Shown: piece after piece, positions 4,608 to 12,549 of the stretch
Position numbering within the stretch: position 1 is the stretch's first letter
How the letters are laid out: each line of letters opens with the position of its first letter
DNA from: a virus
Strand: one strand, 5' to 3'
DNA: 46,234 bases
Virus record (IMG/VR): IMGVR_UViG_3300026529_000001
Made by a program: the position numbers and the translations under genes
The notes under the pieces: generated by a model
What the model saw: only the letters and a program-made list of their open reading frames with translations
Databases searched by the model: none
What the model was told of the DNA's origin: nothing

Positions 4608-4868
4608 CTACTTCACCTTGCCGCTCCCCAACCGGCTCGGGGTGTGCTTCCCCTTCCCACCGCCCGCCTTATCCCCGCGTCCGCTCTTCGTCGCCGGATA
4701 CCCGTGCTGAACGGGGTTCGGTTGCGAGGACGCCGACGCCGCATATTCGCTGTCGTGGCTGTGCGGGGTGTGAATGTGCGTGGCCGACCCGGTACTCTTG
4801 GGCGTGTGATGCCCGTGCCCGATCCCGAGCGGCTCAGCCCCGTGCTGGGCTACCTTCTTCGTGGCCAT
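4608..4868 (-). CDS. Small His/Gly/Lys-rich protein
   Basis: ATG at 4868 has GGAGG 9 nt upstream. Sequence is MATKKVAQHGAEPLGIGHGHHTPKSTGSATHIHTPHSHD...GGGKGKHTPSRLGSGKVK. Its stop overlaps the SD of the next gene. Confidence 0.5.
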   Translation of the reverse strand: MATKKVAQHGAEPLGIGHGHHTPKSTGSATHIHTPHSHDSEYAASASSQPNPVQHGYPATKSGRGDKAGGGKGKHTPSRLGSGKVK

Positions 4869-5196
4869 GAGTCTCGCCTCCATGCTTCATGCGATTGTGG
4901 TTCCGGAGCAACCCTGCGGTACGGAATGCTTTGTCACAGTCCGAGCAGTAGTGGATCTCCTCGACCTTCGGAACGGGCGAGAAATCCTTCGGGACTTCTC
5001 CGTGCGCCGGACCCGAGAGATCCCCGTCCATGATGAACCGGGGGTAGAGATTCGAGAGCGAGCGGATAAACTGCGCGCCCTCGTCGTCGGTGTCGAGTGC
5101 GCCGTCCTTGAACTGATACGGACGGTTCGTCCGATGATCCCACACCCGATACTGAGGCCAGCGGTTACAGATGAACCGATGACTAATGACTTCCAT
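4834..5196 (-). CDS. Protein with a classical C2H2 zinc finger
   Basis: ATG at 5196 is preceded by GGAGGAGGACAAGGT. The C-terminus YCSDCDKAFRTAGLLRNHNRMKH fits C-x2-C-x3-F-x5-L-x2-H-x4-H. Confidence 0.6.
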   Translation of the reverse strand: MEVISHRFICNRWPQYRVWDHRTNRPYQFKDGALDTDDEGAQFIRSLSNLYPRFIMDGDLSGPAHGEVPKDFSPVPKVEEIHYCSDCDKAFRTAGLLRNHNRMKHGGETHGHEEGSPARG

Positions 5197-5377
5197 ACCT
5201 TGTCCTCCTCCATTCAATGTATGCCTTCCATGCCTTGCCAGCGCATTTCGGAGAACAAGTGGTTTGCGAAGATTCACCGCGACCATCAGAATGCGGATAG
5301 ACCCAACAACAAGCAAGGTGGATCATCTGACCGCAAAAACATCGACCGGCATTCGTGCTGACGAACAGATATGACAT
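5183..5377 (-). CDS. Small Cys-rich protein
   Basis: 64-aa ORF. ATG lies 3 nt after the upstream TGA with a strong SD (AAGAGGTGAG). Seven Cys (GRCFCGQMIHLACCW...TTCSPKCAG). Visibly lower G+C. Confidence 0.45.
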   Translation of the reverse strand: MSYLFVSTNAGRCFCGQMIHLACCWVYPHSDGRGESSQTTCSPKCAGKAWKAYIEWRRTRYGSH

Positions 5378-5380
5378 TAC

Positions 5381-5752
5381 TCACCTCTTATCCGAGTAGA
5401 TCCACGCGATCCCCCAGTTGTCGTTCGCGTTGATCGTCGTCACGTTGATCCGGAGCGCGTGGATGTGCCCCGCCTGATAGAGATACGGGGCCGCGGCCGT
5501 GAGCACGCCGACCTTCACGAACACGTTCGACAATCCGGCCGTCACATCCGCTTTGTAGGCGGGGTCCACCGTGTATTCGACGTTAATGTTCGCGGTCGTC
5601 CCGATCGTCCCGAACACCTGGAATGTCGCGTCGAACACCCCCGCGCAGAGGAGGACCGTGGTGACATTTGCCGGCGCGGGGAGCCCAGTGAGGACCTGGA
5701 CCCCCGTCGTCGCCGTGGTCGCTTTGATCAGGATCGCGTTGAACGTGCTCAT
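5381..5752 (-). CDS. Hypothetical head-module protein
   Basis: 123-aa beta-rich ORF starting 3 nt after the upstream stop. Confidence 0.55.
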   Translation of the reverse strand: MSTFNAILIKATTATTGVQVLTGLPAPANVTTVLLCAGVFDATFQVFGTIGTTANINVEYTVDPAYKADVTAGLSNVFVKVGVLTAAAPYLYQAGHIHALRINVTTINANDNWGIAWIYSDKR

Positions 5753-5755
5753 GGG

Positions 5756-6082
5756 TCAGTACCCGAAGACCATGAATTTGATCACGTTCCCCGTGGTGAA
5801 GGCTGTGCTGTTCCCTGCCCCCAACTCGACCCCTGCCTGGTAGAGCCGGATCGTCGAGCTCGACACATCGAACCCCGCGACAAGCGTTACCGCCCCCGAG
5901 GTCGCCATCGCGAACATCCCTCGGATCAATACCGGCAGTTGGAGCGTGGCCGTGCTGACCGGGATACCGTTCGTTTGATAGGTGGTCGTATCCCCGGTCA
6001 TCGTGATGTAGCGGACCCGATCCCACCCACCCCCACCTTTCTGGGCGAGTTGCGCGTTCCGGTCAACCGTGAATGCTGGCAT
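5756..6082 (-). CDS. ~110-aa head-module paralog, copy 3 (candidate decoration/cement protein)
   Basis: Strong SD (TAGGAGGT, 8 nt upstream). Shares TGD-x-(S/T)Y...G, LR(V/L)Y and the C-terminal (V/F)(F/L)G(Y/F) end with ORFs 11657..11989 and 12208..12549. Confidence 0.65.
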   Translation of the reverse strand: MPAFTVDRNAQLAQKGGGGWDRVRYITMTGDTTTYQTNGIPVSTATLQLPVLIRGMFAMATSGAVTLVAGFDVSSSTIRLYQAGVELGAGNSTAFTTGNVIKFMVFGY

Positions 6083-6095
6083 GATTGGCTACCTC

Positions 6096-6599
6096 CTAAG
6101 ATACAGCCAAGTGCTCTGCATGCCCAAGGGCTTTGCGGACATGATTCTTCTTGTGGGGCGAGAGAAATGTGAAAATCGTGTAGAGCAACCCGCGTGCGCG
6201 AGGACCGCTCAGTTGCCATTGAAAATACATTCTCGTGCTTGGGTGTCGATAGATTCCGACGCGACCCCCAAAAAGCATTTGGAGACGATCGAGAATCCAT
6301 CGATGTTTTTGTCCTACGTGCACGCGTTCATATCCCTTTTGGCTTTTGGCGATGCACCCTTCTCCTTCAATAATCCCTGCCGCCCAAGCAATATCAAGCA
6401 TGGTTGGAGAAATTGAAGGAGCACGATCCGAAGCCATTCTGCCGAATTTCCCAACAGAACGACCACCACCCGCACGACAATCCTCGGATGTCAGTCGATG
6501 CTCATGTCCTTTCATTCTTGCTGCGATCATCTGCTTTCGCTGTCCAGACGTGAACTGTGCCCAGAACCTAAGCGCCGACTGCCTGTTTGTATCGCTCAT
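6096..6599 (-). CDS. Free-standing LAGLIDADG homing endonuclease (single-motif type)
   Basis: The motif LDIAWAAGIIEGEGCI matches a LAGLIDADG helix. ATG at 6599 follows GGGGGTGAG. The TAG stop lies inside the SD of the next gene. Low-G+C island between the capsid stop (6651) and the next gene. Confidence 0.75.
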   Translation of the reverse strand: MSDTNRQSALRFWAQFTSGQRKQMIAARMKGHEHRLTSEDCRAGGGRSVGKFGRMASDRAPSISPTMLDIAWAAGIIEGEGCIAKSQKGYERVHVGQKHRWILDRLQMLFGGRVGIYRHPSTRMYFQWQLSGPRARGLLYTIFTFLSPHKKNHVRKALGHAEHLAVS

Positions 6600-6650
6600 C
6601 GTTCTCACCCCCACCCAATATCAACACATTAGGCGGAGAAAGTAAATAAC

Positions 6651-7655
6651 TTAAGCGGTATATGCCTTCATGTTCTTTAATAATGCATGCGTCTGTTCAT
6701 GGTGCACTTCTAGCCCCGCCTCCGTGAGGAATTGATCGATCCGCACGTCATCCCCGGGGTTCTGCACGTTCTCTTGGAGGGCCGTGTCCCGGAGCGGGCG
6801 GTACTTGAGCCGGTCGAGATCAAGTACGACCCCCCAACTCTGGAACGTCGGGTTCGTACTGAGGAGCGGATGCTTGTAGATGAAAAACGTGCCGAACGGC
6901 GTCCCGTACTCCATCAACCGATACCCGTACGTCTCATCGAGCGGGACGGTGTTCATCGTGTTTTTGTTCTTCGCCATCTGGTTCAGCACGTTGATCGCGA
7001 CCCCACCGGCCAGCAGGAGCTTCTCGTCCGACCCGAACCGGAAGATCTGCTCCAGCGTGTTATCCCACGTCGCTTCCGTGACCGTCCCCGCGAAGTCGGT
7101 GATGTTCGTCGAGATGAAGTTCATGACCCCCTGGGTCGTCCGCTGCGCCTGCCCGTTCGTCCCGGTCGTCGAGATCCGCTGCCCGAAGATGAACGCCTTC
7201 TCCATCTCAACCGAGTGGTCGCGGAGCGCCCGAATCCGGGATTGCGTGTACGGGTCGCCGGTCCGGAGATACGTCTTGAGCGCCGTCCCGGTCAAACTGA
7301 AGGACGTTTTGAAGATCTGCGTGTAATTGAACGGGGCGCTCGGCTGCCACTGAATGCTCGTGGCATACCCCGCCCCTTCCGCGAACGCTGATCCCACGAT
7401 CACCAGCGCATCAGTCGAGGCAATCGACGCCGCCGCGACCGACCCAAATCCGCGCACGACGGTCAATGTCGACACCCCATCGAACGCGGTCACGAGCATC
7501 GTCTCCAAGGTCTGCTCGTCCATGAGCACATGCCCCGGCTTGAAGATCACGAGATCCGTGACGTTCGTGCCGGTCGCCACCACGATGGAGGTCGCGGCTG
7601 CGCTATAGCTGGTCGAGACGAATACCCTTTGAACTGGAGTGGCTTCTTCGAACCA
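6651..7655 (-). CDS. Major capsid protein, exon 2 (HK97-fold family)
   Basis: The capsid frame is open upstream of the tracked GTG (7583) and reads WFEEATPVQRVFVSTSYSAAATSIVVATGTN... The body contains ...NYTQIFKTSF...RDHSVEMEKAFIFGQR...GLEVHHEQTHALL, typical of this capsid family. It lies downstream of portal and scaffold. Confidence 0.85.
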   Translation of the reverse strand, partial: WFEEATPVQRVFVSTSYSAAATSIVVATGTNVTDLVIFKPGHVLMDEQTLETMLVTAFDGVSTLTVVRGFGSVAAASIASTDALVIVGSAFAEGAGYATSIQWQPSAPFNYTQIFKTSFSLTGTALKTYLRTGDPYTQSRIRALRDHSVEMEKAFIFGQRISTTGTNGQAQRTTQGVMNFISTNITDFAGTVTEATWDNTLEQIFRFGSDEKLLLAGGVAINVLNQMAKNKNTMNTVPLDETYGYRLMEYGTPFGTFFIYKHPLLSTNPTFQSWGVVLDLDRLKYRPLRDTALQENVQNPGDDVRIDQFLTEAGLEVHHEQTHALLKNMKAYTA

Positions 7656-8307
7656 CAGGTTTACCCACGGCTTTCGCTCGTGGCCTGGACCATATCTTCA
7701 CCCGTAAGGGTGTCCTGCTCATGGCCTCTGAGGACTCCCCGGCGATTCAACAAATGTACTTCTTCCATGATCGCAATCTCTCGTGGTCCATACGGGTGAT
7801 AGCGTCCTCTCGCTTTTGAAGACAATCGACGTTGGCAAAATTCCAAAACTAATTCCGCCTGTTTTGTCTTCGCAACGAGATAGGGAATGATCGGCGGCAA
7901 CACTTGTGCCGCACCCGTCAAGGATTGGATTCTCACGGAGAATGCTTTCCGCGCACGACCATTTGATGGTGTTACAGTCAATGCGTAGGGAACGCATCCT
8001 AATTTCGTGAAAATCTTTCTCGCGTGTTCGATTAAACGAAGGTCACAATTGTGCGCATCTATCTGTGGACGCATCCATTGACCCGCTTGCGCATTTCGTT
8101 GCCGCTTCATGTGATTAACGGCAATCGAAATTGTGCCTTCTCCATCCAAGAAACACGCGATCCACGAAAGATCAACCGGGGTTGCCTGCTGATTGTCCAT
8201 TGTCGCATCCTTTCCGCTATCACCCATAGGTGGGAAAGGCTTTAGGATATTCCAGCATACCGCAGGATTTGAGTTCAACCGGAGCCTCCTATGTTCCTCT
8301 AGAGGCG
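7656..8307 (-). mobile_element. Putative group I intron interrupting the capsid gene (carries a LAGLIDADG ORF)
   Basis: Exon 1 ends in U (8308) and the intervening sequence ends in G (7656). Internal GUUGAACU (8272..8279) pairs with the exon-1 end AGUUCAAU, placing U.G at the junction. A GAAA-tetraloop hairpin lies at 7665..7683. The exon join restores ...DPQFN|WFEE... Confidence 0.7.
7661..8200 (-). CDS. Intron-encoded LAGLIDADG homing endonuclease
   Basis: ATG at 8200 follows GGAAAGGA. Sequence is MDNQQATPVDLSWIACFLDGEGTISIAV..., a LAGLIDADG motif. Low G+C. The stop is 5 nt from the proposed 3' splice site. The tracked 274-aa ORF's N-terminal extension is exon 1 and intron 5' sequence read out of frame. 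Confidence 0.8.
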   Translation of the reverse strand: MDNQQATPVDLSWIACFLDGEGTISIAVNHMKRQRNAQAGQWMRPQIDAHNCDLRLIEHARKIFTKLGCVPYALTVTPSNGRARKAFSVRIQSLTGAAQVLPPIIPYLVAKTKQAELVLEFCQRRLSSKARGRYHPYGPREIAIMEEVHLLNRRGVLRGHEQDTLTGEDMVQATSESRG

Positions 8308-8478
8308 ATTGAACTGCGGGTCGGTCGTACGTTCGCTTTCCAACCGCGTCAGGAACGCCGTCAACGGCGCGGGGTTGGGGTGGAGAAAAAGAATTTCCTC
8401 GCGCCAGTTTTGGGTACGCTCGCCGCGCGGGTCGTCCACGTTGAAGGAACCGGCCCCGCGTAAACCCAAGATCGCCAT
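8308..8478 (-). CDS. Major capsid protein, exon 1 (57 codons)
   Basis: GGAGGTGA (8482-8489) lies 3 nt before ATG 8478. MAILGLRGAGSFNVDDPRGERTQNWREEILFLHPNPAPLTAFLTRLESERTTDPQFN is a conserved capsid N-terminus. An in-frame TAG follows 3 codons later if the transcript is unspliced. Confidence 0.8.
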
Positions 8479-8578
8479 ACGTCACCTCCGGTGATGTGTG
8501 ACCGCTCTTGTGTCTCGCGGCGATCCCCGGAAGGACCCCGGCTCCCCGGAAGGAGCAGGAAACAACGAGCAGGTCGTG

Positions 8579-9328
8579 CTACTCTACCGAACCACCCGAT
8601 CGCTTGCCGCGTAGATAGTCGTGCATGTCCTGCCTGAGCTTGGTATCTCGATCCTCGTTGATCGGTTGCGGTCCCACCGCCGTAATCCGCCCGCCCGTTT
8701 CGGCGTAGACACCCTTCCGTCGCGGAGGAGCAGCGGGAAGAGGCTCTTCCTCTTCCTCGACCTGCGGGCTCCCCGGGATCATGGCTTTGGCGGCCTTCGC
8801 GATCATCTGGAATGCCTTCGGACGAGTCGCGGGGCGAGAGAGCGCCTGCTGGAACTTCGTATCGCCGCGCACCTGAAGGATCGCTCGCCTCACCGCTTCG
8901 CTCCCCATCTCGGTCCCCATGAGATCAGGGTAGTAGGACGAGAACTCCATATCGGCCCGCATCGCGCCCGCCGCATTGAGCGCTTCCTGACGGGAGATTT
9001 TGGTGACGTGCTCGGTCAGGTCTTTCCCGGCGATCTTGATCGCCCGTTCGACGGCGGTCCCGGGATCGGCGAGCCACGTCTGGTCGTCTCCGGCTTCTCG
9101 ACGAACCTTCCCCGCCCAGTCCGACCACCCTTTGTCGGCTTCGTCCCGGGTCGGTTCAAGCTGCTTCGGTTGGGATTGACTCGCGACCCGCGCCTCAAGT
9201 TCCTGATACCGACGCGCGAGATCGGCGTTTTCGTTGAGGACCCGGCCGACTTTCTGTTCGAGCGTTTCTCCCTGCGGTTGCGGGTCAGTCGGTTTCGGTT
9301 CGAGCAACTGATCCAACTCGGTGCTCAT
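8579..9328 (-). CDS. Scaffolding protein (putative)
   Basis: 249-aa charged, helical, coiled-coil-like ORF between portal and capsid. Strong SD (GGAGGGTGAGAAGGC). Confidence 0.6.
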   Translation of the reverse strand: MSTELDQLLEPKPTDPQPQGETLEQKVGRVLNENADLARRYQELEARVASQSQPKQLEPTRDEADKGWSDWAGKVRREAGDDQTWLADPGTAVERAIKIAGKDLTEHVTKISRQEALNAAGAMRADMEFSSYYPDLMGTEMGSEAVRRAILQVRGDTKFQQALSRPATRPKAFQMIAKAAKAMIPGSPQVEEEEEPLPAAPPRRKGVYAETGGRITAVGPQPINEDRDTKLRQDMHDYLRGKRSGGSVE

Positions 9329-9651
9329 GCCTTCTCACCCTCCTTCGATTCGATCGAATCCAGGATCGTGTCGGGCAACTGCTCGCACAGGAAGATGCCG
9401 TCGATCATGCCTTGCAAGTAGTTAAACTCGCTCCGCCATTCCGCGTCCGTTTTGCTCGCTTTCCCGGGCCGACCTAAGTTGTTGCGGTCGGTCTCCCGGA
9501 CTTTGCGATGCGTCTGGAAGAGTTCACGTAGGACGAGCCAGTCCGGGGATTGCTGGAGCCGGCGGACGGCCCCCACCATTCGGGCCTCCGATTCCGCCTG
9601 CTGGGCCACCTGGGCCTCCAGCCGGGACAAGGTTTCCTCGTTGGACACCAT
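9325..9651 (-). CDS. Hypothetical head-module protein
   Basis: ATG at 9651 follows AGGTGG. Helical 108-aa product coupled (ATGA) to the scaffold gene. It overlaps the Gly/Pro-rich 3' end of the portal ORF, so the start is uncertain. Confidence 0.4.
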   Translation of the reverse strand: MVSNEETLSRLEAQVAQQAESEARMVGAVRRLQQSPDWLVLRELFQTHRKVRETDRNNLGRPGKASKTDAEWRSEFNYLQGMIDGIFLCEQLPDTILDSIESKEGEKA

Positions 9652-11656: not shown

Positions 11657-11989
11657 TCAGTACCCGAGGACGACGAACTGCAGCGAGAGTGCGGTGAGAT
11701 TCGTCCCTGTCGCCACTTCGGTCATGCCGCCCGTCTTGGACGCGGGAAACGTATAGACGCGCAACGTGTTCGCGACAGAATCGAAGACGAGATTGTACCC
11801 GCCGGCCATCCCGTTGGTGCCGAACGCTCCGAGGATTTTCTGGAAGAATCCCAACGAGGTGGTGGTCACGGCATATCCGCCGGCCGGGTAACTCGCATCC
11901 CCGGTGATCAGCATGTAATTTGTATTCATCGACGAAAACACTCCGGCGAGATTCCCGCCGGTCCCTGTTTCGGTGATTGTCAGCGCCAT
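11657..11989 (-). CDS. ~110-aa head-module paralog, copy 1
   Basis: MALTITE...ITGDASYPAGGYAV...LRVYTF...ATGTNLTALSLQFVVLGY is clearly similar to 12208..12549 and 5756..6082. Confidence 0.65.
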   Translation of the reverse strand: MALTITETGTGGNLAGVFSSMNTNYMLITGDASYPAGGYAVTTTSLGFFQKILGAFGTNGMAGGYNLVFDSVANTLRVYTFPASKTGGMTEVATGTNLTALSLQFVVLGY

Positions 11990-12207: not shown

Positions 12208-12549
12208 TCAGAATCCGAACACGGCCGCGTTCACCGTGATGGTCGAGAGATTCTGCCCGCTCGTCGCTTCGATCATCGCGGTCGAGGTGACGGTCGGCGT
12301 CTTGAAGAACCGGAATGTGCTGTACGCTCCGTCCCAGACCACGATCCACGGCGCGCTCGCAGTCGTGACCTGAAGGGATTGCACGCCCTGGATCTGCTGG
12401 GAGAACGTGAACGTGCTCGTCGAGACGGCATACCCGCCGTTCGGGTAGGATGAATCACCCTGGAGCGAGGCGTACTTGAGGGCCTGCGGGGAAATGACGC
12501 CTGCGAGATTGTATTGCGTGTTGTAGGGAACGACCACAGTCAATGCCAT
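12208..12549 (-). CDS. ~110-aa head-module paralog, copy 2
   Basis: MALTVVV...LQGDSSYPNGGYAV...FRFFKT...TSGQNLSTITVNAAVFGF is a paralog of 11657..11989. Confidence 0.65.
   Translation of the reverse strand: MALTVVVPYNTQYNLAGVISPQALKYASLQGDSSYPNGGYAVSTSTFTFSQQIQGVQSLQVTTASAPWIVVWDGAYSTFRFFKTPTVTSTAMIEATSGQNLSTITVNAAVFGF

What the first reader, a model, noticed from the sequence alone, without database searches (positions are those of the whole stretch)
6651..8478. Major capsid gene appears split by a group I intron carrying a LAGLIDADG endonuclease
**Seen in sequence**
- A 57-codon ORF (8478->8308, minus strand) follows a strong SD (GGAGGTGA). It encodes a typical capsid N-terminus ending ...TTDPQFN and hits TAG three codons later (8299-8301).
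- The frame of the 310-aa capsid ORF stays open upstream of its tracked GTG and reads WFEEATPVQRVF... from 7655.
- Joining 8308|7655 gives ...DPQFN|WFEEATP... and one continuous 391-aa protein.
- The last exon-1 base is U and the last intervening base (7656) is G.
- Twenty-nine nt into the intervening sequence, GUUGAACU (8272-8279) can pair with the exon-1 end AGUUCAAU. That is 8 bp, with the U.G wobble exactly at the proposed splice site.
- A CCACG-A-GC-GAAA-GC-CGTGG hairpin sits at 7665-7683.
- A LAGLIDADG ORF (7661..8200, low G+C) fills most of the 652-nt insert and stops 5 nt before the 3' junction.

**Established knowledge**
- Group I introns use a U.G pair in P1 and a terminal G.
- They commonly carry LAGLIDADG genes.

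**Inference**
- This is a self-splicing intron in an essential late structural gene, so capsid synthesis would depend on splicing.
- Only 107 nt precede the ORF, so the 3' part of the endonuclease ORF must overlap core RNA helices. That arrangement is unusual.
Basis: partly seen in the sequence, partly recalled or inferred. Interest (0 to 1): 0.85.

Follow-up and report, generated by a model that had tools for sequence, protein, structure and literature searches.

The report
Self-splicing intron splits phage capsid gene
The only major capsid gene of this SU10-like phage is interrupted by a 652-base group I intron that carries its own homing endonuclease gene, so the capsid protein can only be made after RNA splicing; this kind of element is already known in other phages.

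Summary
Exon 1 is 8478..8308 (57 codons) and exon 2 is 7655..6651, both on the minus strand. Joined, they give one 391-aa SU10-type major capsid protein. It aligns without a gap across ..DPQFN|WFEE.. with 31 uninterrupted homologues.

The 652-nt insert (8307..7656) has every group I element in canonical order:
- P1 with the U.G pair, then P3, P4, P5/5a/5b and P6
- P7 with a bulged A and the G-C pair, then P8, P9.0, a GAAA-capped P9 and the terminal G

Rfam does not detect it (10.5 bits), most likely because a 434-nt ORF-bearing loop sits in P6. However, it belongs to a large phage intron lineage. An ORF-less member of that lineage scores 74.9 bits. On 39 members the P3/P7 pseudoknot shows strong covariation (95% paired, 0 of 500 shuffles).

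The ORF is an I-CreI/I-MsoI-like single-motif LAGLIDADG enzyme. It starts at an AUG inside P5, and its disordered tail is read from the P7-P9 core. That overlap is the rule in this lineage, not an oddity.

Precedents exist (mycobacteriophage LittleE and Tuc2009 capsid introns), so this is a new member of a known kind. One further point is of interest: ORF-bearing relatives sit overwhelmingly in capsid genes.

The parts
8482..8489 (-). Shine-Dalgarno GGAGGTGA of the capsid gene
   Evidence: Read directly from the sequence. GGAGG ends 6 nt before ATG 8478.
8308..8478 (-). Capsid exon 1 (57 codons, ends ..TTDPQFN). Its last 8 nt (8315-8308, AGUUCAAU) form the 5' strand of P1, and the last base U is the wobble partner at the 5' splice site.
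   Evidence: It aligns with residues 1-54 of intronless P0002/L004.
7656..8307 (-). Group I intron, 652 nt (intron position i = 8308 minus the window coordinate)
   Evidence: Boundaries come from the protein alignment.
8299..8301 (-). In-frame TAG, the third codon after the 5' splice site. It ends translation of unspliced RNA, giving a 59-aa product.
8272..8281 (-). Internal guide sequence CGGUUGAACU (i27-36). G29 makes the U.G pair. C26, C27 and G28 can pair with exon-2 UGG to form a 3-bp P10.
   Evidence: P1 stem-loop -17.6 kcal/mol.
8262..8267 (-). P3 5' strand UCCUGC (i41-46)
   Evidence: Pairs with GCAGGA at 7718-7713. All 6 pairs show double changes across 39 relatives.
8252..8257 (-). 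P4 5' strand UGCUGG (i51-56), part of the P element, followed by J4/5 AA
   Evidence: Pairs with UCAGCA at 8192-8187. Rfam's alignment of homologue L053 gives the same assignment.
8209..8247 (-). P5 5' strand UCC (i61-63), then the P5a (i69-75/93-99) and P5b (i76-79/84-87) extension. GGAAAGGA (i93-100) is the likely ribosome-binding site of the endonuclease and is held in P5a.
   Evidence: P5a and P5b appear in the unconstrained MFE fold. The role as a binding site is inferred.
7661..8200 (-). LAGLIDADG homing endonuclease ORF (179 aa plus stop). The AUG (i108-110) lies in the P5 3' strand. Codons 3-5 (N-Q-Q) are the Q element and P4 3' strand.
   Evidence: Matches found:
- PF00961 E 0.0025 and phrog_5046 E 3.9e-13
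- I-MsoI by sequence
- AlphaFold model with Foldseek hits to I-CreI and I-MsoI, prob 1.0
8176..8192 (-). P4 3' strand UCAGCA (i116-121), P6 5' strand GG (i122-123) and P6a 5' strand CCCCGG (i127-132)
   Evidence: The P6 self-duplex is -18.2 kcal/mol, against a mean of -6.0 with the 3' strands of other members.
7732..7742 (-). P6a 3' strand CCGGGG (i566-571) and P6 3' strand CC (i575-576). Together they close the 434-nt loop that holds most of the ORF.
   Evidence: The base pairs of P6 co-vary in relatives.
7721..7731 (-). R element UCAGAGGCCAU (i577-587): J6/7 followed by the P7 5' strand G[A]GGCCA(U), with a bulged A
   Evidence: The G-C pair next to the bulge is invariant in 39 of 39 members, and 4 of 6 P7 pairs show double changes.
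7713..7718 (-). P3 3' strand GCAGGA (i590-595)
7699..7712 (-). P8 hairpin CACCC-UUAC-GGGUG (i596-609)
   Evidence: -6.7 kcal/mol. A hairpin is present at this place in 97% of 39 relatives.
7687..7698 (-). S element AAGAUAUGGUCC (i610-621): J8/7 AAGAU followed by the P7 3' strand
   Evidence: Aligned at high posterior probability to the Rfam RF00028 consensus gAAGAUAUAGUC.
7657..7686 (-). P9.0 (AGG i622-624 with CCU i649-651) enclosing P9 CCACGAGC-GAAA-GCCGUGG (i625-643)
   Evidence: P9.0 also pairs in L001 (AG/CU) and L003 (AC/GU), read from the sequences.
7656..7656 (-). Terminal guanosine (omega G), the last intron base
   Evidence: The position is fixed by the protein alignment.
6651..7655 (-). 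Capsid exon 2 (334 codons plus stop, begins WFEEATPVQR). It has no start codon before the GTG at 7583.

Best explanation
Bases 8307..7656 (minus strand) are a mobile group I intron inside the single major capsid gene of an SU10-like phage.

**Splicing (inferred from the anatomy)**
- The late transcript folds into the group I core.
- The last 8 exon-1 bases and the first two intron bases pair with the guide sequence CGGUUGAACU. This places the U.G wobble at the 5' splice site.
- An external guanosine bound at the G-C pair next to the bulged A of P7 attacks that site.
- P9.0 and a 3-bp P10 bring the terminal G (7656) and exon 2 into place.
- The exons are ligated to give ..CAG UUC AAU|UGG UUC GAA.., which encodes the 391-aa capsid protein.
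- Unspliced RNA yields only a 59-aa fragment, because of the TAG three codons into the intron. Exon 2 has no start codon or ribosome-binding site of its own. Capsid synthesis therefore depends on splicing.

**Endonuclease and mobility (inferred)**
- The intron carries an I-CreI/I-MsoI-type single-motif LAGLIDADG endonuclease gene looped out of P6.
- Its start codon and likely ribosome-binding site are buried in P5/P5a. Its last ~23 codons are simply the P7-P9 core read through.
- The enzyme presumably cuts intronless alleles of this capsid gene around ..TTCAAT|TGGTTC.. in co-infecting relatives, and the intron is copied in by repair.

**Status of the steps**
- Shown here: exon continuity, core anatomy, homology, covariation, and the fold of the enzyme.
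- Inferred: catalysis, splicing in vivo, and endonuclease activity and target.
For: **1. Exon join**
- The joined product is one PF17236 SU10_MCP match over residues 23-386, E 1.3e-42.
- 31 uninterrupted homologues, up to 70% identical, align through the junction without a gap. Examples are P0002 ..TTDPRYNWYEEVTPVQ and P0004 ..TTDAQYNWFEEQTPSQ.
- tblastn of intronless L004 splits into 1-54 -> 8478..8308 and 55-393 -> 7655..6654.

**2. Not an intein:** the insert is 652 nt and three frames are involved.

**3. Core elements are in canonical order, with P/Q/R/S-like sequences.** The Rfam RF00028 alignment, though weak overall, places P8'-J8/7-P7'-P9 at high posterior probability.

**4. Homology to a phage intron lineage**
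- The P4-J4/5-P5 motif occurs in 96 viral contigs and the Q motif in 21.
- ORF-less member L053 scores 74.9 bits against a gathering score of 50. Rfam assigns it the same P3, P4, P5, P6, P8 and P9 that I assign here.

**5. Covariation on 39 members**
- 95.3% of cells are paired, against 28-47% when partners are slid.
- 0 of 500 shuffles reach the observed score.
- Double changes occur in 6 of 6 P3 pairs, 4 of 6 P7 pairs and 1 of 2 P6 pairs.

**6. Variable helices**
- P6 own-strand duplexes average -11.0 kcal/mol, against -5.0 with foreign strands.
- P8 and P9 hairpins are conserved with varying sequence.

**7. Endonuclease**
- It matches I-MsoI by sequence.
- The model has pLDDT 74.5 and pTM 0.71. 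The top 45 Foldseek hits are I-CreI, I-MsoI, I-CvuI or engineered derivatives of them.
- The catalytic acidic residue is present (LDGEG).

**8. Gene copy number and assemblies**
- This is the only capsid gene in the window.
- The same split arrangement occurs in 5 independently assembled 20-50 kb contigs.

**9. Related cases**
- A related ribozyme sits 4 nt away in another SU10-type capsid gene, L025.
- Spliced capsid-gene introns are documented in phages LittleE and Tuc2009 (PMC3706429).
Against: - The intron itself does not reach any Rfam threshold. There were no hits, and only 10.5 bits (E 7.6).
- No transcript, proteomic or biochemical data could be consulted.
- Several helices are minimal: P5 has 3 bp, P10 has 3 bp, the base of P6 has 2 bp, and there is no P2.
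- The unconstrained MFE fold of an ORF-deleted mini-intron recovers only the inner part of P1 plus P5a/b, P6a, P8 and P9. It does not recover P3, P4 or P7. That is expected for P3 and P7, which form a pseudoknot, so it gives no independent support for those three helices.
- P4 and P5 are invariant in the relatives because the relatives were retrieved with those motifs. They therefore carry no covariation evidence.
- Relatives were found starting from this intron's own sequence.
Confidence: 0.9

Rival explanations
1. A homing endonuclease gene has been inserted and split the capsid gene into two separately translated pieces that assemble without RNA splicing. Precedents are free-standing endonuclease insertions that split nrd genes in T4-like phages.
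For: - Gene callers do see separate ORFs of 59 aa and 310 aa.
- A second, free-standing LAGLIDADG-like ORF lies immediately downstream at 6096-6614, so such insertions do occur in this genome.
Against: - Exon 2 has no start codon before the GTG at 7583, and no Shine-Dalgarno sequence there. Translation from that GTG would drop 24 residues, some of them conserved (WFEExTPxQR).
- The insert carries a complete group I core that co-varies, which a plain endonuclease cassette would not need.
- The insert boundaries obey the U / terminal-G rule exactly at the codon-precise junction.
Confidence: 0.04
2. The insert is a decayed group I intron that can no longer splice, so the contig represents a defective phage or a capsid pseudogene.
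For: - No experimental evidence of splicing is available.
- The Rfam score is very low.
- P5 and P10 are short.
Against: - Every one of the 23 core pairs tested is a standard pair in this copy (first row, read against the structure).
- The invariant J8/7, the bulged-A P7, the G-C guanosine-site pair, the U.G pair and the terminal G are all intact.
- Both exons are free of stops and frameshifts and remain 70% identical to intact homologues.
- The endonuclease ORF is intact.
- The same genome was assembled five times from independent data at full phage length. That argues for a replicating phage.
Confidence: 0.04
3. The interruption is removed at another level: protein splicing (an intein) or ribosomal bypassing.
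For: Only that both also restore interrupted phage genes.
Against: - The insert is 652 nt, which is not a multiple of 3. Exon 1 meets a TAG after 3 codons, and the endonuclease lies in a third frame, so no continuous precursor protein exists.
- As far as I know, documented ribosomal hops are far shorter than 652 nt (for example, 50 nt in T4 gene 60).
Confidence: 0.01

Closest known systems
Capsid-gene intron of mycobacteriophage LittleE (Pope et al. 2013, PMC3706429), and the Tuc2009 capsid intron cited there
   Same: - An intron of about 0.65-0.8 kb lies in the major capsid gene of a tailed phage.
- U is the last exon base and G is the last intron base.
- It carries an I-CreI-like LAGLIDADG gene of about 177 aa.
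- Splicing of LittleE was proven by RT-PCR and N-terminal sequencing.
   Different: - In LittleE the endonuclease gene is on the opposite strand, and the intron type was called only 'most likely group I'. Here the ORF is co-oriented, starts inside P5 and overlaps the core, and the core could be assigned helix by helix.
- The capsid family (SU10 type) and the host lineage differ.
- No sequence comparison with LittleE was run here.
Phage T4 td intron with I-TevI (own knowledge, not tested here)
   Same: - It is a group I intron in an essential phage gene.
- The endonuclease ORF is looped out of the P6 region.
- An in-frame stop lies shortly after the 5' splice site.
- The ribosome-binding site of the ORF is sequestered in RNA structure.
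   Different: - I-TevI is a GIY-YIG enzyme.
- td has a P2 and P7.1/P7.2 (subgroup IA2). This intron has no P2 and no P7.1/7.2.
- Here both ORF ends overlap core helices.
Group I introns of Bacillus phages AR9/PBS1, Lak megaphages, Lactococcus phage P1048, Acinetobacter and Pseudomonas KIL phages
   Same: They share the P4-J4/5-P5 ... Q sequence block with the ORF-less member L053 of this lineage (blastn 69-85% identity over 70-140 nt). They interrupt terminase, portal and other essential genes.
   Different: - The matches are to the relative L053, not directly to this intron. A 97-nt query from this intron found nothing.
- Most of those introns are unannotated in the records.
I-CreI / I-MsoI / I-CvuI homodimeric LAGLIDADG endonucleases
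   Same: - Single LAGLIDADG motif and about 160 folded residues.
- Foldseek prob 1.0, TM 0.56-0.70.
- Full-length sequence alignment to I-MsoI.
- All are encoded in group I introns.
   Different: - Sequence identity is 16-21%.
- Those enzymes come from algal chloroplast rRNA introns; this one comes from a phage capsid-gene intron.
- It has an extra, disordered 24-residue tail encoded by the ribozyme core.

Membership tests
Group I intron | The 5' splice site follows a U that forms a U.G wobble with the internal guide sequence in P1. | tested here: met
   Exon AGUUCAAU plus intron CG pair with CGGUUGAACU (i27-36), giving 10 bp with the U.G at the junction.
Group I intron | The last intron nucleotide is G (omega G). 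| tested here: met
   Base 7656 is G. The junction is fixed independently by the protein alignment.
Group I intron | Core helices run in the order P3-P4-P5-P5'-P4'-P6-P6'-P7-P3'-P8-P8'-P7'-P9 with the P3/P7 pseudoknot, and are supported by compensatory changes. | tested here: met
   39-member anchored alignment:
- 95.3% paired, against 28-47% when partners are slid
- 0 of 500 shuffles reach the observed score
- P3 6 of 6, P7 4 of 6 and P6 1 of 2 pairs show double changes
- P6, P8 and P9 are conserved as structures

P4 and P5 are invariant and therefore uninformative.
Group I intron | Guanosine-binding site: a G-C pair in P7 next to a bulged nucleotide, with a conserved J8/7. | tested here: met
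   G[A]GGCCA / UGGUCC with bulged A581. The G-C pair is invariant in 39 of 39 members. J8/7 AAGAU matches the RF00028 consensus. Function was not tested.
Group I intron | Score at or above the Rfam RF00028 gathering threshold (an operational criterion). | tested here: inconclusive
   This copy gave no hit at gathering and 10.5 bits against 50 in a 691-nt search. The ORF-less homologue L053 scores 74.9 bits. The most likely cause is the 434-nt loop in P6, which the model probably cannot span.
Group I intron | Removal restores an uninterrupted, conserved coding sequence. | tested here: met
Group I intron | Guanosine-dependent self-splicing, and spliced RNA in vivo. | not testable with these tools
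   No transcript data or biochemistry were available.
LAGLIDADG homing endonuclease (I-CreI type) | A LAGLIDADG helix ending in a catalytic acidic residue. | tested here: met
   LSWIACFLDGEGTISI is conserved in relatives; D19, E21 and G22 are invariant.
LAGLIDADG homing endonuclease (I-CreI type) | Pfam family score above the curated cut-off. | tested here: inconclusive
   PF00961 scores 19.1 bits against a cut-off of 23.1. phrog_5046 gives E 3.9e-13. I-MsoI gives E 3.7e-7 to 0.006.
LAGLIDADG homing endonuclease (I-CreI type) | An alpha-beta-beta-alpha-beta-beta-alpha fold like I-CreI. | tested here: met
   The model has pLDDT 74.5, with H8-21, E22-26, E45-51, H54-66, E72-76 and E86-91. The top Foldseek hits are I-CreI, I-MsoI and I-CvuI at prob 1.0.
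LAGLIDADG homing endonuclease (I-CreI type) | Cleaves the intronless allele. | not testable with these tools
   The candidate target is the joined exon sequence. The intronless relative reads CGCTACAAC|TGGTACGAG at that place.
Intein | An in-frame insertion translated as part of the host protein. | tested here: not met
   652 nt, a stop after 3 codons, and three different frames.
SU10-type major capsid protein (PF17236) | A full-length match of the spliced product. | tested here: met
   E 1.3e-42 over residues 23-386. phrog_1328 major head protein gives E 3.2e-39.

The most novel reading that the evidence does not exclude
This intron is one member of a large lineage of phage group I introns. 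I found no description of that lineage, but I did not search the literature for it specifically.
- In this lineage the endonuclease ORF always starts at an AUG built into the P5 3' strand, so the Q element encodes M-D-N-Q-Q.
- The ORF reads through the catalytic core in any of three frames.
- ORF-bearing members have settled preferentially in major capsid genes of at least 12 PHROG major-head families. At least 20 of 27 members examined lie in such genes.
- Two independent insertions lie 4 nt apart at the DPxFNW hot spot of SU10-type capsids.

If real, this suggests that capsid genes are a favoured niche for this ribozyme scaffold, perhaps as a weapon in competition between co-infecting phages.
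Probability: 0.35. Interest if true: 0.55.

Novelty: new member of a known kind. Interest (0 to 1): 0.35.

Why it matters
**Annotation.** Public gene calls give this phage a truncated 310-aa capsid protein plus an orphan 59-aa ORF. Rfam misses the intron. Capsid-based phylogenies and structure predictions for this phage would therefore start from a wrong protein, and the correct product is the 391-aa spliced protein.

**Biology.** The case adds an SU10-like phage of about 59% G+C to the short list of phages whose capsid synthesis depends on RNA splicing.

**Detection.** ORF-bearing group I introns can be recovered despite failing covariance-model thresholds, by anchoring on ORF-less relatives.

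**Possible wider point.** ORF-bearing relatives cluster in capsid genes. If this is confirmed on an unbiased sample, it would bear on how homing elements choose and exploit essential late genes.

Tried and rejected
- **Rfam on the whole window (gathering) and on 5500-9000 (E<=10):** no group I hit. A 691-nt search gave only 10.5 bits.
- **megablast of 6000-9400 against GenBank phages:** no match.
- **blastn of a 97-nt core segment:** no match.
- **tblastn of the endonuclease against phages:** one weak metagenomic hit.
- **Word-indexed protein search with the endonuclease:** only three distant relatives. These nevertheless led to the homologous introns.
- **Unconstrained MFE folding of an ORF-deleted mini-intron:** it reproduces only the inner part of P1 plus P5a/b, P6a, P8 and P9, not P3, P4 or P7. 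It was therefore not used as evidence for the core.
- **My first P4 assignment (CCUGC with GCAGG of Q):** rejected in favour of P3 = UCCUGC/GCAGGA(i590) and P4 = UGCUGG/UCAGCA. The second matches the consensus register, Rfam's alignment of L053 and the covariation.
- **Intein and ribosomal bypassing:** rejected on reading frames and length.
- **A second intron around the downstream LAGLIDADG ORF (6096-6614):** considered but not supported. No core motifs or Rfam hits were found there, and it lies in an intergenic spacer relative to L004.
- **Pfam/PHROG scans of neighbouring ORFs:** they gave context only (SU10 portal, large terminase).
Full report
**1. The observation.** Reading 6500-8600 on the minus strand and listing ORFs confirms every coordinate in the finding.
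- GGAGGTGA (8489-8482) precedes ATG 8478.
- The ORF runs 57 codons to AAT (8310-8308), then reads CGC CTC TAG, with the TAG at 8301-8299.
- The frame of the 310-aa capsid ORF is open upstream to TGG at 7655-7653. Its first possible start is GTG 7583, with no Shine-Dalgarno sequence.
- Joining 8308 to 7655 gives a 391-aa protein.
- The insert is 652 nt (217x3+1). Exon 1, exon 2 and the internal ORF use three different frames, which excludes an intein.
- The insert has 50% G+C, against 60-61% for the exons.

**2. The join is real.**
- The conceptual product is a single SU10_MCP (PF17236) match over residues 23-386 (E 1.3e-42), and matches phrog_1328 major head protein.
- tblastn against GenBank phages gives one-piece alignments across the junction. 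The best is Microcystis phage Mel-JY34, residues 1-386.
- A search of 5.8 billion proteins found the truncated 310-aa call itself (P0001) and many uninterrupted homologues of 386-399 aa, up to 70% identical.
- In an alignment of 31 of them..TTDPQFN|WFEEATPVQR.. sits in a gap-free block that is partly conserved (consensus DPxFNWFExxTPxQR).
- tblastn of the closest intronless gene (L004) against the window breaks exactly at 8308 and 7655.
- It is the only capsid gene in the window.
- The same split arrangement is present in five contigs of 20-50 kb from different assemblies.

**3. The insert is a group I intron.** Numbering the intron i1-i652 (i = 8308 minus the window coordinate), the helices are as follows.
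- **P1:** exon AGUUCAAU plus C1-G2 pair with C27..U36. This gives 10 bp, with U(-1).G29 at the splice site.
- **P1 extension:** C3-U7 with G19-G23.
- **No P2:** the linker is CAAA.
- **P3:** UCCUGC (41-46) with GCAGGA (590-595).
- **P4:** UGCUGG (51-56) with UCAGCA (116-121).
- **J4/5:** AA.
- **P5:** UCC (61-63) with GGA (110-112).
- **P5a and P5b:** 69-75/93-99 and 76-79/84-87.
- **P6:** GG (122-123) with CC (575-576).
- **P6a:** CCCCGG (127-132) with CCGGGG (566-571). It closes a 434-nt loop.
- **J6/7:** UCA.
- **P7:** G[A]GGCCA(U) (580-587) with (A)UGGUCC (615-621).
- **P8:** CACCC-UUAC-GGGUG (596-609).
- **J8/7:** AAGAU.
- **P9.0:** AGG (622-624) with CCU (649-651).
- **P9:** CCACGAGC-GAAA-GCCGUGG (625-643).
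- **Omega G:** G652, which is base 7656.
- **P10:** exon-2 UGG can pair with C26-C27-G28, giving 3 bp.

The P, Q, R and S blocks resemble the classical consensus. That comparison rests on my own knowledge and on the RF00028 consensus printed.

**4. Rfam and the route around it.**
- Rfam found nothing at gathering level, and nothing for group I at E<=10 in 3.5 kb.
- In a 691-nt search RF00028 appeared at 10.5 bits (E 7.6). That is not significant, although its 3' part (P8'-J8/7-P7'-P9) aligned at high posterior probability.
- The likely reason is the 434-nt loop in P6.
- Three distant relatives of the endonuclease turned out to lie in homologous introns that split another capsid-type gene. These are L001/L002 and L003.
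- Two conserved motifs were then used as patterns. The P4-J4/5-P5 motif hit 96 viral contigs and the Q motif hit 21.
- Some members are ORF-less, about 230 nt long.
- One ORF-less member, L053:2805-3033, scores 74.9 bits with RF00028 (gathering 50). Rfam assigns it the same P3, P4, P5, P6, P8 and P9 that I assign here by homology.

**5. Covariation.** I anchored 39 members with the same architecture (no P7.1/7.2) on the four conserved blocks. This gave a gap-free 90-column alignment. Pair counting gave:
- 95.3% of cells form standard pairs, against 28-47% when partners are slid by 1-3 columns. No shuffle out of 500 reached the observed covariation score.
- All six P3 pairs show changes on both sides, with all four Watson-Crick types.
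- Four of six P7 pairs show double changes. The pair flanking the bulge switches G-C/A-U 19:19.
- One of two basal P6 pairs shows double changes.
- The G-C pair of the guanosine site is invariant.
- P4 and P5 never vary, which is expected because the members were retrieved with those motifs, so they say nothing either way.

For the length-variable helices:
- Each member's own P6 strands pair at -11.0 kcal/mol on average, against -5.0 with strands of other members. This intron's value is -18.2.
- P8 and P9 hairpins are present in 97% and 87% of members, with differing sequences.
- P9.0 also changes in a compensating way in the three introns with a known 3' end: AGG/CCU, AG/CU and AC/GU (read).

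**6. The ORF.**
- The 179-aa ORF (8200..7661) has one LAGLIDADG motif (IACFLDGEGTI).
- It scores below the Pfam cut-off (PF00961, 19.1 against 23.1 bits) but matches phrog_5046 (E 3.9e-13).
- It aligns full-length with I-MsoI.
- An AlphaFold model (pLDDT 74.5, pTM 0.71) has the expected alpha-beta-beta-alpha-beta-beta-alpha core.
- Its best PDB matches are I-CreI, I-MsoI and I-CvuI (Foldseek prob 1.0, TM 0.56-0.70).
- Residues 156-179 have pLDDT below 50. Residues 157-179 are the ones encoded by R-P3'-P8-S-P9.

**7. The overlap is a lineage trait.**
- In 33 ORF-bearing relatives the ORF starts at the same AUG inside the P5 3' strand. It reads MDNQQ in 28 of them, MENQQ in 3, and MDYQQ or MENQH in the other 2. 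The N-Q-Q codons are the Q element.
- 32 of the 33 ORFs run into R.
- R is read in all three frames (13, 12 and 8 members).
- The RNA, not the protein, is therefore the conserved entity there.
- A likely ribosome-binding site (GGAAAGGA, i93-100) is one strand of P5a, so folding and translation of the ORF probably compete. This is inference.

**8. How it most likely works.** The capsid pre-mRNA must splice to give the 391-aa protein.
- Ribosomes on unspliced RNA stop at the TAG three codons into the intron.
- Exon 2 cannot be translated on its own.
- The chemistry (guanosine attack at the U.G site, then exon ligation guided by P9.0, P10 and omega G) follows from established knowledge of group I introns. 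It was not tested here.
- The endonuclease presumably cuts intronless alleles of this capsid gene. The closest intronless relative differs at several positions around the site.

Rivals are each given 4% or less:
- A split gene translated as two polypeptides.
- A dead intron.
- Recoding by an intein or ribosomal bypassing.

The reasons are that exon 2 lacks a start, every tested core pair is intact in this copy, both exons are undamaged, and the phage was assembled repeatedly at full length.

**9. Comparison with what is known.**
- Group I introns in essential phage genes are commonplace. One example is the 2513 introns found in Jug phages, many validated by metatranscriptomes (PMC12880540).
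- Capsid genes have precedents. The LittleE capsid intron carries an I-CreI-like LAGLIDADG ORF and was shown to splice. The Tuc2009 capsid intron is cited in the same paper (PMC3706429).
- The ribozyme scaffold is shared with unannotated introns of AR9/PBS1, Lak phages and others.
- This is therefore a new member of a known kind. Its practical value lies in correcting the annotation.

**10. What else turned up.** ORF-bearing members of the lineage sit mostly in capsid genes.
- All ten flanking exons tested first were major head proteins, from seven PHROG families.
- Of 27 members with a usable flank, at least 20 hit major-head families, 12 or more families in all.
- The exceptions were an RNR beta subunit and an RNA-polymerase-like gene.
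- ORF-less members lie in RNR, RNA polymerase, tape-measure and other genes.
- One relative (L025) is an SU10-type capsid gene. It has a related ribozyme but an unrelated two-motif LAGLIDADG ORF, inserted 4 nt upstream of the site used here..DDPEF|NWW.. against ..DPQFN|WFE...
- The sample was retrieved with motifs from capsid introns, so the bias needs an unbiased test before any claim is made.
- A second, free-standing LAGLIDADG-like gene (6096-6614) sits in a 568-nt low-G+C insert just after the capsid gene. It is absent from the intronless relative.

Noticed in passing
window 6096-6614 (minus strand): A second LAGLIDADG-like ORF (172 aa; PF14528 E 8.5e-4, phrog_5046 E 2.2e-13) lies in a 568-nt low-G+C insert between the capsid stop (6651) and the next gene (ATG 6082). 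The intronless relative L004 has only a 76-nt spacer there. The ORF looks free-standing: no group I motifs or Rfam hits surround it. It is only weakly similar to the intron's enzyme (30% over 37 aa around the motif).
   Followed up: partly
L025 (IMGVR_UViG_3300036943_000490), intron about 8593-9414: Another SU10-type capsid gene carries a related ribozyme (822 nt) with an unrelated two-motif LAGLIDADG ORF. It is inserted 4 nt upstream of the site used in the window (..DDPEF|NWWTKG.. against ..DPQFN|WFEE..). This suggests independent invasions of one conserved hot spot.
   Followed up: partly
loci L001-L117 (viral contigs that share the intron's P4-P5 or Q motif): ORF-bearing members of the intron lineage lie mostly in major head protein genes. 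At least 20 of 27 members do so, spread over 12 or more PHROG major-head families. ORF-less members lie in RNR, RNA polymerase, tape-measure and terminase-like genes. The sample is biased by how it was retrieved.
   Followed up: partly
alignment A3, columns 24 and 41 (window about 8249 and 8195): Next to P5, a J4/5 position and a J5/4 position change together as C..C or U..U across relatives. They are not a Watson-Crick pair, so this may be a non-canonical pair or a tertiary contact.
   Followed up: no
L075:6762-7065 and L023:13385-13655: Two further group I introns pass the Rfam threshold (91 and 77 bits) in contigs that also hold a member of this lineage. Several introns can therefore occur in one phage.
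   Followed up: no
window 5759-6055, 11663-11908, 12211-12525 (minus strand): There are three paralogues of the small protein encoded just after the capsid gene. Two of them lie between the terminase and portal genes. Function is unknown, with no Pfam or PHROG hit.
   Followed up: no
window 4834-5316 (minus strand): This ORF lies in a lower-G+C stretch (about 0.54) and has a weak C2H2 zinc-finger match (E 8e-5, below the cut-off). Its core (4888-5178) is conserved in the relative L004, so it is probably not a recent insertion.
   Followed up: partly
public gene calls for this phage (P0001, P0121, L118): Pipelines call the capsid as 310 aa plus a 59-aa orphan. One pipeline calls no gene at all inside the intron. 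Another starts the endonuclease 9 codons early, at an AUG in the P5b loop.
   Followed up: yes
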